This document shows positions 52,301 to 58,300 of a stretch of DNA of 64,000 bases, piece after piece. The first letter of the stretch is position 1, and each line of letters opens with the position of its first letter. The DNA is from Escherichia coli (GTDB taxonomy: Bacteria; Pseudomonadota; Gammaproteobacteria; Enterobacterales; Enterobacteriaceae). Location of the stretch: the NCBI RefSeq assembly GCF_965641715.1, contig NZ_OZ282453.1, one strand, 5' to 3'. The position numbers were made by a program.

Positions 52301-55300
52301 AGGCATGACGCTGGAGTCGGTTGTTGAACTGGAAAATGGCAAGATGGTGATGGTCAGCGAATTCTTCAATGAAGACGATCCTGACTTTGACCACTCTCTC
52401 GACCAAAAAATGGCCATTAATTGGGTAGAAAGCTGGGAGGTCGTACTGGCTGATGAAGAACACAAGTAAGTTCCAGAATGTAGTGATTGTCACTATTGTC
52501 GGTTGGCTTGTGTTGTTTGTCTTTCTGCCCAACCTGATGATCATTGGCACCAGCTTTTTGACCCGCGACGACGCCAGTTTCGTCAAAATGGTCTTTACGC
52601 TGGATAACTACACGCGTCTGCTCGATCCGCTCTATTTTGAAGTGCTATTGCACTCGCTGAATATGGCGCTGATCGCCACCCTCGCCTGCCTGGTGCTGGG
52701 CTACCCGTTTGCCTGGTTTCTGGCGAAGCTGCCACACAAGGTGCGTCCGCTGCTGCTGTTTCTGCTGATTGTTCCCTTCTGGACCAACTCACTGATTCGC
52801 ATCTACGGGCTGAAAATTTTCCTCAGCACCAAAGGCTACCTCAACGAGTTTTTGCTCTGGCTGGGCGTTATCGACACACCAATTCGTATCATGTTCACGC
52901 CCAGTGCGGTGATTATCGGTCTGGTTTACATTCTGCTGCCGTTTATGGTGATGCCACTGTACTCCAGTATCGAAAAACTGGATAAGCCGTTGCTTGAGGC
53001 GGCGCGCGATCTCGGTGCCAGCAAGTTACAGACTTTTATCCGCATCATTATTCCACTGACGATGCCGGGGATTATTGCCGGATGTCTGCTGGTGATGCTG
53101 CCAGCGATGGGCCTGTTCTATGTGTCCGACCTGATGGGCGGTGCGAAAAACCTGCTGATCGGTAACGTCATCAAGGTCCAGTTCCTTAATATTCGTGACT
53201 GGCCGTTTGGTGCAGCTACCAGCATTACGCTGACTATCGTAATGGGCCTGATGTTGCTGGTTTACTGGCGCGCTTCTCGTTTGCTGAATAAGAAGGTGAG
53301 CGAATTAGATGATTAATCCTTTATATTCAATGCATTAAGTTTGTTTTTGAGTGGTTTTGCCGTTTAAGGTAACGACGTTATAGATCCTATCAAAATCAAT
53401 CAATTCCATTCTGGTTTTGGAGAAAGATTTTTCGAGAGCTTCGGTCTTTAACTAAAACTGATTGCGTATAATCCCAATACCCCTCCCCGACTATCTGAAT
53501 GGTCGGGGAGGCACTTCAAGCACAAAATATCATCCCTGCGCCGTTGATTACTCTGCAGGTGAAGTCGGCCACTCAATATCAGGTGCAGTTGATGTATCAA
53601 CACGGTTCAGCAACACCCGATACTTTTTCCAGGTTGTTACCAGACTCACATTCGTTCATTAATATGTCCTGTGATTTGCGTGCGGTGAGGTAGCCTTTTC
53701 CCAACCTCACCATCATCCGGCAATTTGTATTTATCACAAACGGCCTGTATCAGTTGTCTGTTGCACCAACCATACCCGCAAATTTGAGCCATTGTCCTGA
53801 TGGACTTCTGTTACCGCGGTAGTGATAAACAAGGATTGCATTTGTTACTCCACCATAGTCAGCTTTATGTGATGTGGTTAAGCGAATTGTATAATCACCA
53901 TCGGGCAGGTTAAAAACTTCAATTACAGTCCCTGCTAATTCAACCGCTCCAAACCCCGTTATATTGTTGATGCTGCCCGCATTGAATCCCATCATATCGC
54001 CAAAACCAATCCAGTACTTTTTGCTGAACGCACCATTTGACCTCAGGTGGTTAATAAATGTGGACATACTCATGCCCATTTCGCCGCCAGTTATGGCTGA
54101 TGTACGTACCGAAATACTTGGCAGAGCACTACTCTTCACATAAGAGCTCAGAAGATTTATGACTTCTGTTTTCGTATAAGCATTAACGTTAGCCGCAGTC
54201 AACGTTATATCCGCAGTGCCATCAAACTTCACACCAGCAATTTCCCTTGCAGTCTGCAATTTCGTGGCACTGGCTGCGTTACCCGTTGTATCCTGATTGC
54301 CTGCCGCATTCACCCCCGGGATCAAATCTTTTACTGTATAAATCTGCGCCCAGTCCGACTCAAACCCATACTCATCCCGTGAGGAACGATAAAACAGCCC
54401 ACCATTTTTATAATTGGCCCTGATTTGCAACGTCCGGCAACTTCCACCCCCTGTATAGAAGTTTGCAACAATATAGCTGCTGCCTGTCCGGGTGACATTG
54501 TATGCACCAGATTTGGCATTCCACGGAACGCCTCCCTCTGACTCTGCGTGCACACCGGACGATCCAAGAGCAAAAGCAGAGACATCTGCAGCGGACAGCC
54601 TGATGTCTGATTTCAATGCCTTACCATTCACCTTACGACCAGATGGAACCCGGTCATTTGCATTATCATTCACCGCTTTCACCGCCATTGGTGTTGCCGC
54701 CAGCGATTCACTGTCACTGTCCGTGGCACTGCTGAGCTGTACCACCCCCTTTCTCGTCGTGCTCGCATCCTCTAGCGCCACGGCAGATGCAATATCCTCT
54801 GCCCGTTTTGCTGCTGTCTCGGCACGCGTTGCTGCAGATTCCGACGTACTTTTGCTCTGAGCTGCCGCTGTCGCACTACCAGCTGCCTCTGTCGCCTTCG
54901 TGGATGCCGTCGTGGCACTGACCTTCGCCTCTGACGCCTGTCTTACCGCCTCATCTTTTGAAGCAGACGCCGATGATGCTGATGACGCCGCCGAACTGGC
55001 GGACGATGCGGCTGCCGTTTCTGAGGCTCCTGCGCGGGTTTCCGACGCTTTCGCATTCGTCTCAGATGTCTTCGCTGCGGAAGCAGAACTCGCAGCTGCA
55101 GTGGCCTGTTCAGTGGCTTCGCCAGCCTTCGTTGTGGCTGTTGAAGCGGACGATGCAGCGCTTTCTGCCGATTTTCCGGCGGCAGCGGCACTGGCTACAG
55201 CCTCCCCTGCCTTCACTGATGCCTCACGGGCCGATGATGCAGCCGCGGTTTCTGAGCCTGCCGCAGCTGAGGCACTCTGTCCCGCTGCCGTTTCAGAAGA

Positions 55301-58300
55301 CCTGGCGTTCGTCTCGGACGTTTTTGCCGCTTTCGCGGAATTGCCTGCCGCTGTTGCCGAGGAAGCTGCGCTACTGGCGCTCGAGGATGCGTTCGTTTCT
55401 GATGATTTTGCCGCCTCTTTTGAAGCCGCCGCATCCCGGGCTGAGGTGGCAGCTTCTGACGCTTTCGTAGTCGCGGTGGATGCAGAAGTGGCTGCTGATT
55501 GTTGTGACGCTGCCGCATTCGTTTCTGACGTTTTCGCGGCACTGGCACTGGTAGCTGCCGCGCTTTTTGAGGACTCTGCAGCGGCAGCACTTTTTGATGC
55601 TTCAGTGGCCTTTGTTGATGCCGTTCCTGCGCTGGAAGTCGCTGACTGAGCCGACGACGCGGCCTGTCCGGCTGACGTGCTGGCTGCGCGTGCTGAGTCC
55701 GCAGCATCAGTCGCATGGGTTGCCGCCTCACGGGCTGATGTGCTGGCATCACTGGCTGACTTCTTCGCGGCTGCCGTGTTCTGTGCCACCACGGACGCGT
55801 TACGCGCCACCTCTTCCACCATCAGCTCAAAACGGCGCAGTGCCTCCGGACGGGCATCATCCTCCGTCATGGCACCGAGAAAATCATTCAGCGTACCGGG
55901 TCGGGAATCTTCATACACGGTGATGGTCCCGGCATGTGACGGCGGGAATCCTTCCACCAACAGAATAACGCTGTACTGACCGTACTCAACGTCCATGCTG
56001 TAACGCCCGGCTTCATCCGGATTTTCTGAGGCCAGCGTGTTCACCACCACCGTGGTACTGTTACGTTTTGCTTTCAGCTGGATTGTGCAGTTCTGTACCG
56101 GTTTTCCTGTGCCGTCTTTCAGTACACCTGAAATCTTTACTGCCATATTCACCCCACAAAAAAGCCCGCCTGAACCGGCGGGCTGTCATAACACTGTGTT
56201 ACCTGGCTAATCAGAATTTATAACCGACACCCACGATGAAACCGTCAGTGCGCCAGTCACCACTGCCGGAGCCTTCATAAGCGACATCAATGGCCACGGA
56301 TTCGGTCGGGTTAAACTGCACGCCAGCCCCCCACGCCAGAGACGTGTTGCTGTGGCGACCGTCATCACTTCCGGTCAGCACGTCGTGCGTTTTCCCCTTG
56401 TTATCAGTTACGCGGAGATAATCCCCGGAAAAAGTCGACACACGGCTGTAAGCCACACCCGCCATCGCATACGCGCTGAACCATTCATTCACGCGCACAG
56501 ACGGCCCCGCCATCACGCTGAACCAGCGGTTACGCACGGAATCTTCATGCCAGCGGGTATCGCTGTAACGGGTCAGCTGGCGATTCTTGTCTCCTGCATA
56601 GCTGAACGACGTCACCATCCCCAGTGTGTCCGTAAACTCATAACGGTATTTCACGTTAATCCCGTTCAGATCATCGCTGCCGGGGACGTTCGTCGAGGCA
56701 TGAAGATAGCCCGCGCTCAGCGTGGACTGATGTTCAGACGCCCATGCAGGCGCACAGGATGCGGCCAGACAAATGGCTGCGGACAAAATGGCGGCATAAA
56801 GTTTACGCATAATTACCTCTCGCTTTTCTGCAATAAAAAAGGCACCATTTCTGGTGCCCTTATCTGGGTTATAAATATTTCAACGGATACTGATACCGGA
56901 AGCCGCTTTTTTGGTCACTATCACCGTACAGTCTGTGATGTTACCTGCACCCTGATTGCCTTTCTGGAAAATCCTGAACTCCAGGGTGACGTTCCCACCA
57001 CCACTCGGCATATCAATAACCGCGCTGTAACTCCCGGGAACTGCCCCTCTGGTTTCTCTGGATGCGATTAAGACACCGTTTTTGCGAACTTCAAAACCAT
57101 AACCCGTGTACCTTGTACCTCCCGGGTTATTACCGCTCCCCGGATTGTCATACGCCACACCGTTAAAAATAATGGGCGGAATAATGATTTGACGGTCAAA
57201 GTTATGATCATCGCTGATGGTGACGGTAACCGTCCCGTCGGGTGTTTCCGTGTTCCCCCACGTACCAGCCCTTTTCGGGAATGGTCTGGATACCGCTTTA
57301 ACGAAGTCCCCCCTGACCTGGTTCGCCTCCAGCATGCCCTTAATCGTACAGTTCTCATTTACCGTGACGTTGTTGAGCGTTCCGGCGTTCGCGTTCACGT
57401 TACCGCTGATATCCGCATTTCTCGCCGTCAGCCGACCGTCAGGTGTCAGGGAAAATGCCGGTGGATATCCACCGCTGGTAATGGTGGGAGCCGTCAGATA
57501 TTTCAGGAACACTTCATTCATGAATATCTGATCACCCTGACCAACAAACATCGGCTTTGTGTTGCCATTTGCAGGATTAATCATCGCAATCCTGTCTGCC
57601 GCCAGCAGCACCTGACTCTGCATGCCGTCGGGGGTGTTCTCAATACCGGCACCGATACCCGCGATATAAAGGCGTCCGTCCTGCATCTGCTGCAGCTTCA
57701 CAGCCCACATGCTGTTCAGGTTATTACTTGTATCAACCTGAACCTGCTGTATCTGCTGAATTGCTGCACTCTGGTCTTCCAGTTTCTTATTGACGGTCTG
57801 TGTGATTTCATTGCTGACATCCGTAATGGACGTCCTGATTTCAGCCAGGTCAGGCGCAAGCTGACCGTTATCAATCTGCGTCCACAGCTCCTGAGCCAGA
57901 TGGGTTTTCCCTATCTCGCCTTTGAAAAAATCCAGATAGCCGGATGCGTCATCACTCGGCTGACCAACAGCCTCCACGAATGCCGATTTGCCAACGGTGT
58001 TCACACTGCGAACGTAAAAATAATAATTATGGCCCGGTTTGATATTGATACTGGCGGCTATCCAGTACAGCGCCGTGCCAAGATAGCGTGCTGTGGTTTC
58101 AACCTGCCTGATATCCGCAATCCGCTTTTCCGAGAACCAGAACTCAAACTGTACCGTCGGATCATAAACGGCAAGATGCGGCGTTGCGGTTATCTGAAAA
58201 TAGCCCGGCGTCAGCTCAATCCGCGACGGTGCTGCCGGTGCGGCAATCCGGAACGATACCGACGCCGGATCGCCCTGCTGCCCCCAGGCATTTGCCGCCC

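What the first reader, a model, noticed from the sequence alone, without database searches (positions are those of the whole stretch)
53317..56152. Side tail fiber with a non-lambda C-terminal domain and no tail-fiber assembly gene
The Stf N-terminus and Ala/Ser-rich shaft resemble lambda Stf, but the last about 250 residues (…GVKFDGTADITLTAANVNAYTKTEV…GMVGATDN) do not. No tfa-sized ORF lies on the minus strand between stf and potB. Either the distal fiber domain folds without a Tfa chaperone, or the prophage end is deleted and the fiber is defective.
Basis: partly seen in the sequence, partly recalled or inferred. Interest (0 to 1): 0.45.

Follow-up and report, generated by a model that had tools for sequence, protein, structure and literature searches.

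The report
Side tail fibre without its chaperone
A lambda-like prophage next to potB has swapped the tip of its side tail fibre for a knob-ended module typical of E. coli phage-plasmids, and the swap destroyed its helper (tfa) gene; the new tip type is never accompanied by such a helper and is well conserved, so it probably folds alone, which is a useful lead but not a major surprise.

Summary
Window 53750-56146 (-) is an intact 798-aa Stf. Residues 1-497 are lambda-like (PF08400, lambda orf-401). The last ~200 aa are not. No tfa gene follows.

Sister prophages at the same potB site carry a lambda-type tip plus a full 193-aa Tfa. Here 1167 bp (that tip plus 5/6 of tfa) were replaced by 704 bp. 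The prophage end itself is intact.

The same terminus ends the fibres of 74 SSU5-like phage-plasmids, including Cyrano/pLF82. Cyrano's complete genome has no Tfa. Nine terminus-bearing loci outside the window's lineage lack Tfa, while both classical-tip controls have it. dN/dS against Cyrano is 0.07.

Most likely the fibre is functional and Tfa-independent (about 0.6). Rivals are a defective fibre or help in trans. Interest is modest.

The parts
53750..56146 (-). stf, side tail fibre gene: 798 codons plus stop, intact. An alternative upstream GTG lies at 56152.
   Evidence: ORF list. Translation and C-terminus. The same 798-aa ORF is intact in 4 other E. coli loci.
55745..56146 (-). Stf residues 1-134: prophage tail fibre N-terminal domain, the attachment end.
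   Evidence: PF08400, E 9.8e-72. 84% identical to lambda orf-401.
54782..55744 (-). Stf residues ~135-455: Ala/Ser-rich repetitive shaft, GC about 0.6.
   Evidence: Translation. Composition. Degenerate direct repeats. Lambda orf-401 match.
54323..54577 (-). Stf residues ~524-608: 'Y' knob domain (PF12604 gp37_C type). It is shared with the sister prophages' Stf.
   Evidence: 8JU3 residues 323-406, E 6.5e-21. PF12604, 26.3 bits. Alignment with L005 Stf.
53632..54335 (-). Swapped-in cassette (704 bp) relative to sister prophage L005. It encodes Stf residues ~604-798 plus about 100 bp of orphan spacer, and replaces 1167 bp in L005 (lambda-type tip plus 498 bp of tfa).
   Evidence: blastn boundaries. 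Protein alignment. The cassette is present in only 7 of 5426 complete E. coli genomes.
54197..54310 (-). Stf residues ~613-650: tail-fibre repeat (GNAASATKLQTAREIAGVKFDGTADITL).
   Evidence: Translation. Alignment to the P7 S and Cyrano repeats.
53792..54085 (-). Stf residues ~688-785: terminal 'X' knob domain. It is preceded by an AYTKTE helix and followed by a 13-residue tail (...WLKFAGMVGATDN). No Pfam model covers it.
53650..53749 (.). Orphan 100-bp spacer between the stf stop and the tfa remnant. It belongs to the cassette and has no recognisable homology.
   Evidence: No tfa similarity. No phage match beyond the tfa 3' end. Absent from Cyrano and A10, where homology stops at the stop codon.
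53548..53649 (-). tfa remnant: the last 33 codons plus stop of a lambda-type tail fibre assembly gene (conserved C-terminal helical region). It has no start codon and an in-frame stop just upstream.
   Evidence: tblastn E 7e-18. Lambda Tfa 162-191 at 83%. Profile E 2e-11. PGAP pseudogene in relatives.
53317..53547 (.). Native prophage end / attachment junction next to potB, collinear with sister prophages. Contains a GC-rich hairpin at 53482-53511.
   Evidence: 97-98% identity to L004, L005 and L006 over 52900-53631. Fold.
52453..53316 (+). potB, the host gene that abuts the prophage end.
   Evidence: ORF. Annotation in collinear genomes.

Best explanation
This is a mosaic lambda-type side tail fibre. 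Its attachment domain, shaft and first knob (Y) are native to the potB-integrated lambdoid prophage. Recombination replaced the original lambda-type distal tip, and with it most of the adjacent tfa gene. The left crossover lay just after the Y domain (…DWAQIYT). The right crossover lay in the highly conserved 3' end of tfa. The incoming module consists of a fibre repeat, a short helix and a terminal ~100-aa knob (X). This module is the normal terminus of the tail fibres of E. coli SSU5-like phage-plasmids such as Cyrano/pLF82, which encode no Tfa. The inferred mechanism, which is not shown, is that the terminal knob trimerises on its own and sets the register of the three chains from the C-terminus, the role a Tfa or an intramolecular chaperone plays in other fibres. 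On this view the fibre is functional without a Tfa and uses the knob as its distal, presumably receptor-binding, end. The 33-codon tfa fragment is a dead remnant.
For: Shown: (1) Swap anatomy. The window aligns with sister potB prophages over 52900-53631 and from 54336 or 54660 onward. Those sisters have a lambda orf-314-type tip and a full 193-aa PF02413 Tfa ending 232 bp from potB. (2) The remnant is Tfa residues 161-193. This is the conserved C-terminal region; the fibre-binding N-terminal domain is gone (domain roles from PMC9608196). (3) The same terminus, ending at the same residue (…WLKFAGTVGATSN), closes the 1341-aa fibre of phage-plasmid Cyrano at 81-88% identity and occurs in 74 plasmid records. 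In every such plasmid examined the fibre gene is followed by holin/lysis genes. (4) Cyrano's complete 108,379-bp genome has no Tfa: tblastn best E 0.45 and profile best E 1.6, with positive controls at 3e-67 and 2e-11. Cyrano makes virions (PMC9928086). (5) Nine loci outside the window's lineage that carry fibres ending in X have no Tfa profile hit. These are the A10 dusA prophage, L011 (a fibre with a PF12571 N-terminus), L012, L017-L019 and three plasmids. Both control fibres, with an internal X plus a classical tip (P0012, P0013), are directly followed by PF02413 genes. (6) Purifying selection: over the last 144 codons against Cyrano, dN/dS is 0.068 at dS about 1. The ORF is intact in all copies, and relatives at 62% identity keep the same end. 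(7) The terminus lacks the ~90-aa segment that lies distal to X and Y in the Tfa-accompanied fibres P7 S and Mu S'. No Peptidase_S74 domain is present, whereas sister phage-plasmids (CMS-2020a) have one at E about 1e-11.
Against: No experiment or multimer model shows that X trimerises alone. In the one solved homologue (Mu S', 8JU3) X is an internal domain. Side fibres are dispensable in lambda-like phages, so virion production by Cyrano does not prove that its fibre is folded or used. The E. coli hosts carry several other lambdoid prophages with tfa genes (median 4 stf-related places per genome), so help in trans is not excluded. The cassette is rare in chromosomes (7 of 5426 genomes). PGAP flags the gene as a pseudogene, although the ORF is intact.
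Confidence: 0.6

Rival explanations
1. Defective fibre. The tip swap destroyed tfa, the chimeric Stf cannot assemble, and the prophage relies on J alone, like laboratory lambda with its frameshifted stf.
For: tfa is reduced to 33 codons with no start. Side fibres are dispensable in lambda (established knowledge). The cassette is rare in chromosomes. PGAP marks the gene as incomplete.
Against: The 798-aa ORF is intact in all five chromosomal copies examined. The terminus is under strong purifying selection (dN/dS 0.07). The same terminus is the standard fibre end in 74 phage-plasmids that never had an adjacent tfa. The old Tfa's fibre-binding domain would in any case be specific for the tip that was removed.
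Confidence: 0.2
2. Chaperone supplied in trans. Folding still needs a helper, provided either by a Tfa of a co-resident prophage or by an unrecognised phage or host chaperone.
For: E. coli genomes hold several stf/tfa loci. The conserved Tfa C-terminal domain is generic (PMC9608196).
Against: The Tfa N-terminal domain is tip-specific. The classical distal tip segment of the Tfa-accompanied relatives is absent here. Cyrano and related plasmids carry no Tfa. The genes downstream of the fibre differ between contexts (holin, lipoprotein, YgiW-family cargo, opposite-strand genes), so there is no conserved linked candidate.
Confidence: 0.15
3. Frozen invertible-segment product. The arrangement is a decayed P1/Mu/e14-type shufflon in which inversion or deletion events lost the tfa genes.
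For: The prfC-prophage copy of the same cassette (PEC41, EC416) has a frameshifted DNA-invertase fragment right after the tfa remnant. The X and Y domains are typical of P1/P7/Mu invertible fibre ends.
Against: The window has no invertase or inverted second fibre end. The phage-plasmid and A10 contexts have neither an invertase nor a tfa remnant. This reading would explain the history of the flank, not whether the fibre works.
Confidence: 0.05

Closest known systems
Phage lambda Stf/Tfa (orf-401/orf-314 plus orf-194)
   Same: The gene order J-lom-stf at the prophage end is the same. The PF08400 N-terminal domain and the Ala/Ser shaft are 84% and 56% identical. A fragment of a lambda-type tfa (83% identical to lambda Tfa residues 162-191) lies downstream.
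   Different: There is no orf-314-type His-rich distal tip and no functional tfa. The distal third is built from P1 S / Mu S'-type modules.
Tail fibre of SSU5-like phage-plasmid Cyrano (pLF82, CYRAN_21) and 73 similar plasmids (phrog_6722)
   Same: The last 266 aa are 81-84% identical and end at the same residue. No tfa follows. Neither fibre has an S74 domain.
   Different: Cyrano's fibre is 1341 aa, has a different N-terminal attachment end and carries extra internal knobs. It sits on a 108-kb phage-plasmid and is followed by the lysis cassette.
Mu S' (gp52, PDB 8JU3), P7 S and P1 S' fibres with their U/U' chaperones
   Different: The order is reversed: X then Y then a distal tip in Mu S' and P7 S, but Y then repeat then X and end here. 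The distal ~90-aa tip is missing. There is no U-type chaperone gene and no invertible segment.
Fibres with a C-terminal intramolecular chaperone (Peptidase_S74; T5 pb1, K1F endosialidase, CMS-2020a phage-plasmid fibres)
   Same: They also need no separate tfa gene, and they occur on the same SSU5-like backbone.
   Different: No S74 domain is detectable in the window Stf or in Cyrano's fibre.

Membership tests
Lambda-type side tail fibre (Stf) | PF08400 N-terminal domain and a position after J-lom at the prophage end | tested here: met
   PF08400 at E 9.8e-72. lom at 56211-56810 and J at 56880-60377 lie upstream on the same strand.
Lambda-type side tail fibre (Stf) | orf-314-type distal tip (His-rich, ...NIAFNYIVRLA) | tested here: not met
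   blastp finds no match to lambda orf-314, whereas sister prophage L005 Stf residues 613-826 match it at E 1e-110.
Lambda-type side tail fibre (Stf) | An intact tfa (PF02413) immediately downstream | tested here: not met
   Only the last 33 codons remain. There is no other Tfa in the window.
Tfa / Caudo_TAP (PF02413) | Full-length ORF with a variable N-terminal fibre-binding domain plus a conserved C-terminal domain | tested here: not met
   The remnant covers only residues 161-193 of 193 and has an in-frame stop directly upstream. The full-length relative L005 scores 1.7e-44 against PF02413.
P1 S / P7 S / Mu S' tail fibre ends | X and Y knob domains and Phage_fiber_2 repeats | tested here: met
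P1 S / P7 S / Mu S' tail fibre ends | Distal C-terminal tip after the knobs, followed by a U-type chaperone gene | tested here: not met
   The protein ends 13 residues after X. P7 S continues for about 175 residues (Y plus tip) and is followed by Ua/Ub. The controls P0012 and P0013 are followed by PF02413 genes.
P1 S / P7 S / Mu S' tail fibre ends | Invertible segment with a Cin/Gin/Pin invertase and an inverted second fibre end | tested here: not met
   There is no room for an invertase gene or a second, inverted fibre end in the 433-bp interval, whose small ORFs hit no Pfam or PHROG family. An invertase fragment occurs only in the prfC-prophage copy.
SSU5-like phage-plasmid fibre terminus (phrog_6722) | Full-length match to the C-terminal ~290 positions of the family profile, ending at the profile end | tested here: met
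   phrog_6722 at E 4.6e-125, residues 513-798 against profile positions 682-974 of 974. Cyrano is 81% identical to the last residue. 74 plasmids at 87%.
Fibres with an intramolecular chaperone (Peptidase_S74) | PF13884 domain at the C-terminus | tested here: not met
   No PF13884 hit in the window Stf or in Cyrano's fibre. The positive control, the CMS-2020a fibres, scores about 1e-11.
Self-assembling (chaperone-independent) fibre tips | Trimerisation of the terminal domain without any helper | not testable with these tools
   Only monomer prediction is available. This needs multimer modelling or expression experiments.

The most novel reading that the evidence does not exclude
The terminal X knob defines an unrecognised third solution to tail-fibre assembly. 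On the same phage backbones, some fibres use a separate Tfa, some use an S74 intramolecular chaperone, and this type uses neither. The knob would act as a self-registering C-terminal trimerisation and receptor-binding module. It can be grafted onto unrelated fibre shafts: lambda Stf here, an SSU5-type fibre in Cyrano, and a fibre with a PF12571 (tail-collar-type) N-terminus in L011.
Probability: 0.5. Interest if true: 0.45.

Novelty: new variant of a known kind. Interest (0 to 1): 0.3.

Why it matters
Tail-fibre swapping is the main route to reprogramming phage and tailocin host range. In practice it is complicated by the need to move the cognate chaperone along with the tip. A portable tip that folds without any chaperone, and that nature has already grafted onto at least three different fibre shafts, would be a convenient engineering part. 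It would also add a case to the question of how trimeric fibres set their register from the C-terminus. The locus is a clean natural example of tip and chaperone being lost as one co-adapted unit. It also shows that the conserved 3' end of tfa acts as a recombination handle. On the practical side, automatic annotation (PGAP) calls this intact gene a pseudogene, so this fibre class is under-represented in protein databases.

Tried and rejected
1. Single-sequence AF2 of the last 299 aa gave pLDDT 35.7 and was unusable. It was replaced by an MSA-based model of the last 144 aa.
2. The word-indexed homologue search returned only 6 near-identical proteins. The exhaustive representative search was needed to see the domain family.
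3. I looked for more tfa remains in 53650-53749 and in the rest of the interval with permissive tblastn (word size 2, E up to 10) and a Tfa profile. Nothing turned up beyond the 33 codons.
4. The small ORFs in the interval on both strands, including the 48-aa ORF that overlaps the stf stop, have no Pfam or PHROG hit. They are not conserved in Cyrano or A10, where homology stops at the stop codon. I rejected them as genes. In-frame readthrough of the stf stop was rejected for the same reason.
5. The 168-aa gene after the related fibre in L011 was considered as a novel chaperone. I rejected it because it has a lipoprotein signal sequence, matches phrog_9559 (unknown function), and has no homologue in the window or any other locus.
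6. The terminator and promoter scan of the interval found nothing above expectation. The GC-rich hairpin at 53482-53511 has no U-tract and folds with z = -1.7.
7. No primary paper on 8JU3 was found in the library, and North & Davidson 2021 is not held. Tfa domain roles are therefore cited second-hand from PMC9608196.
8. An invertible-segment origin was considered. Only a decayed invertase fragment in another prophage supports it.
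Full report
**What is at the coordinates**

The minus strand of 53750-56152 carries one intact ORF. The likely start is the ATG at 56146 (MAVKISGVLKDG...), giving 798 aa. This is also the start PGAP uses in near-identical genomes. The gene follows J (56880-60377) and lom (56211-56810) on the same strand. It is the last gene of a lambdoid prophage that abuts potB (52453-53316, + strand). The left 53 kb of the window is ordinary E. coli chromosome (pth ... icd ... phoPQ, roxA, pepT, potAB), collinear with strain EC416.

**Checking the observation**

- The N-terminus is a PF08400 domain (E 9.8e-72).
- Residues 1-326 are 84% identical to lambda orf-401, and residues 275-497 are 56% identical.
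- Nothing matches lambda orf-314, the C-terminal half of lambda Stf.
- The 433-bp interval to potB has no minus-strand ORF above 51 aa, and none of its small ORFs on either strand hits Pfam or PHROGs.

In one minus-strand frame, 53551-53649 reads ...[32 protein letters not shown]. This matches residues 161-193 of the Tfa of sister prophages (88% identity, E 7e-18). It also matches lambda Tfa residues 162-191 (83%, E 1e-14). An in-frame stop lies directly upstream and there is no start codon. PGAP annotates the same stretch in five near-identical genomes as a Tfa pseudogene missing its N-terminus. Nothing else in the 64-kb window resembles a Tfa.

**How the locus arose**

Many E. coli genomes carry a related prophage at the same potB site. 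In HCP5S3_I2 (L005) and KS-NP019 (L006), stf is followed at once by a full 193-aa tfa (PF02413, E 1.7e-44). That tfa ends 232 bp from potB. Their Stf ends in a lambda orf-314-type tip (E 1e-110).

The window aligns with these genomes at 97-98% over 52900-53631, and again from 54336 (L005) or about 54660 (L004, L006) onward. So 1167 bp of L005, comprising the lambda-type tip and the first 498 bp of tfa, are replaced here by 704 bp (53632-54335).

- The left junction is just after the Y domain (…DWAQIYT, about residue 603).
- The right junction is in the tfa 3' end.

The tfa 3' end is the most widely conserved DNA of the region, at 95-100% identity in dozens of lambdoid phages. It also flanks a methyltransferase gene insertion in UMNK88-type prophages. 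The prophage end itself is therefore not deleted. The tip and its chaperone were lost together in an internal cassette exchange.

**Anatomy of the new end**

After the Y domain (residues ~524-608; PF12604; homologous to Mu S' residues 323-406, E 6.5e-21) come three elements:

- one fibre repeat (residues ~613-650);
- a short helix with the AYTKTE motif;
- a ~100-aa domain that I call X (residues ~688-785), followed by 13 more residues (…WLKFAGMVGATDN).

In Mu S' and P7 S the order is X, then Y, then a further distal segment, followed by the U-type chaperone gene. Here the order is Y, repeat, X, end. That distal segment is absent.

**Where else this terminus occurs**

An exhaustive search of 1.84 billion cluster representatives found 123 proteins with an X domain.

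- In 112 domain hits X is internal, with a median of 200 residues following it.
- It is terminal in the 10 close relatives (62% identity or more) and in a few distant fibres.

The close relatives include the 1341-aa fibre of phage-plasmid Cyrano (pLF82), which is 81-88% identical and ends at the same residue. They also include 74 plasmid records of about 100-126 kb, 73 of them typed non-mobilizable, at about 87% identity. Another is a 1302-aa fibre with a PF12571 (tail-collar-type) N-terminus, at 62% identity. In chromosomes the cassette is rare. It occurs in 7 of 5426 complete E. coli genomes, mostly pig isolates, in potB-, prfC- and dusA-integrated prophages.

**Association with absence of a chaperone**

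Downstream of a fibre ending in X, the loci show:

| Context | What follows the fibre gene |
|---|---|
| Cyrano, L012 and three further plasmids | holin-endolysin-Rz (annotated in Cyrano; same layout in the others) |
| A10 (dusA prophage) | YgiW-family cargo gene |
| L011 | lipoprotein gene |
| L019 | opposite-strand genes |
| L017 | an ORF with no family hit |
| potB and prfC prophages | only the dead tfa remnant |

A Tfa profile built here hits none of the nine loci outside the window's lineage. It finds three Tfa genes in the two control loci, whose fibres have an internal X plus a classical tip. Cyrano's whole 108,379-bp genome has no Tfa. The best tblastn E is 0.45 and the best profile E is 1.6, with positive controls at 3e-67 and 2e-11. 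Cyrano is inducible and produces siphovirus particles (PMC9928086).

On the same SSU5-like backbone, the CMS-2020a fibres instead end in a Peptidase_S74 intramolecular chaperone domain (E about 1e-11). The window Stf and Cyrano's fibre have none.

**Is the gene alive?**

The 798-aa ORF is intact in the window and in all four other E. coli loci examined that hold this 798-aa gene. The homologous ORFs in A10, Cyrano, L011 and L012 are also intact. PGAP's 'missing C-terminus' flags are therefore annotation artefacts. Over the last 144 codons against Cyrano, dN/dS is 0.068 with dS about 1. Over the last 266 codons it is 0.084. That is strong purifying selection on the very end of the protein, in lineages without a Tfa.

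**Mechanism**

Shown:

- the mosaic structure;
- the co-loss of the lambda-type tip and of the Tfa N-terminal (fibre-binding) part;
- the consistent absence of Tfa and S74 with this terminus;
- its conservation.

Inferred: the terminal knob trimerises autonomously and registers the three chains from the C-terminus. This is the job ascribed to Tfa's conserved C-terminal domain and to intramolecular chaperones (PMC9608196). The knob would also be the distal, receptor-contacting end.

I put about 0.6 on a functional, Tfa-independent fibre, about 0.2 on a defective fibre, and about 0.15 on help in trans. The invertible-segment idea explains at most the history of the flank. An invertase fragment sits beside the remnant in the prfC prophage.

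**Comparison and novelty**

It works like a lambda Stf at its proximal end and like the SSU5-type phage-plasmid fibre at its distal end. It is a member of the PF08400 Stf family, and of phrog_6722 by its terminus. It is not a member of the lambda tip/Tfa pair, of the P1/Mu S-U system (no distal tip, no U, no invertible segment), or of the S74 class.

The sequences already exist in databases but are uncharacterised and often mis-annotated. Chaperone-free fibres are known in other systems. This is therefore a new variant of a known kind, of modest interest (0.3). It would be somewhat more interesting (0.45) if the knob proves to be a portable self-assembling tip.

Noticed in passing
L001 4765-6247; L002 5084-6583; L007 5894-7393; L008 6016-7515; L009 3686-5515: PGAP annotates this stf as a pseudogene ('incomplete, missing C-terminus') in every genome that has it, yet the full ORF is intact in all of them. 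The C-terminal ~300 codons are left unannotated, so the protein is missing or partial in RefSeq-derived protein sets.
   Followed up: yes
window 53756-56355 versus L002 (PEC41 prfC prophage) and L001 (EC416 potB prophage): The window's stf is 100% identical to the copy in a different prophage (integrated at prfC) of strain PEC41. It is only 83-96% identical along the shaft to the copy at the same potB site in EC416. This suggests recent gene conversion or exchange between co-resident lambdoid prophages.
   Followed up: partly
L002 1910-3951 and L008 2842-4883 (prfC prophage of PEC41 / EC416): Between the fibre region and prfC lie a reverse-transcriptase-family gene and a TIR-domain gene, a likely anti-phage defence cargo. 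A frameshifted DNA-invertase fragment sits directly after the tfa remnant.
   Followed up: no
L004 3150-4780 (UMNK88 and about 15 similar genomes, hits H10-H25): A class I SAM-dependent methyltransferase gene is inserted between a full tfa and a second, 174-bp tfa 3' fragment next to potB. The conserved tfa 3' end is therefore duplicated around an inserted gene, which fits its use as a recombination handle.
   Followed up: partly
L026 2637-7394 and L027 2988-6374 (phage-plasmid CMS-2020a): Sister SSU5-like phage-plasmids have fibres ending in a Peptidase_S74 intramolecular chaperone domain (E about 1e-11). One backbone therefore carries at least two different Tfa-less fibre ends.
   Followed up: yes
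window 54323-54577 (Stf residues ~524-608): The Y domain reaches the Pfam threshold for PF12604 (gp37_C) only when the C-terminal 400 aa are scanned alone. The full-length scan reports only PF08400. The Ala/Ser-rich shaft may be masking it.
   Followed up: partly
window 53482-53511: A perfect 10-bp GC-rich inverted repeat (CCTCCCCGAC ... GTCGGGGAGG) lies about 35 nt downstream of the tfa remnant's stop on the minus strand. It falls within the prophage-end stretch that is 97-98% identical to the sister prophages. It has no U-tract and z = -1.7, so it is at best a weak terminator candidate.
   Followed up: partly
L011 7964-8470: The gene after the related fibre with a PF12571 N-terminus encodes a 168-aa predicted lipoprotein (phrog_9559, unknown function). 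It might be a superinfection-exclusion-type cargo gene. It has no counterpart in the window.
   Followed up: partly
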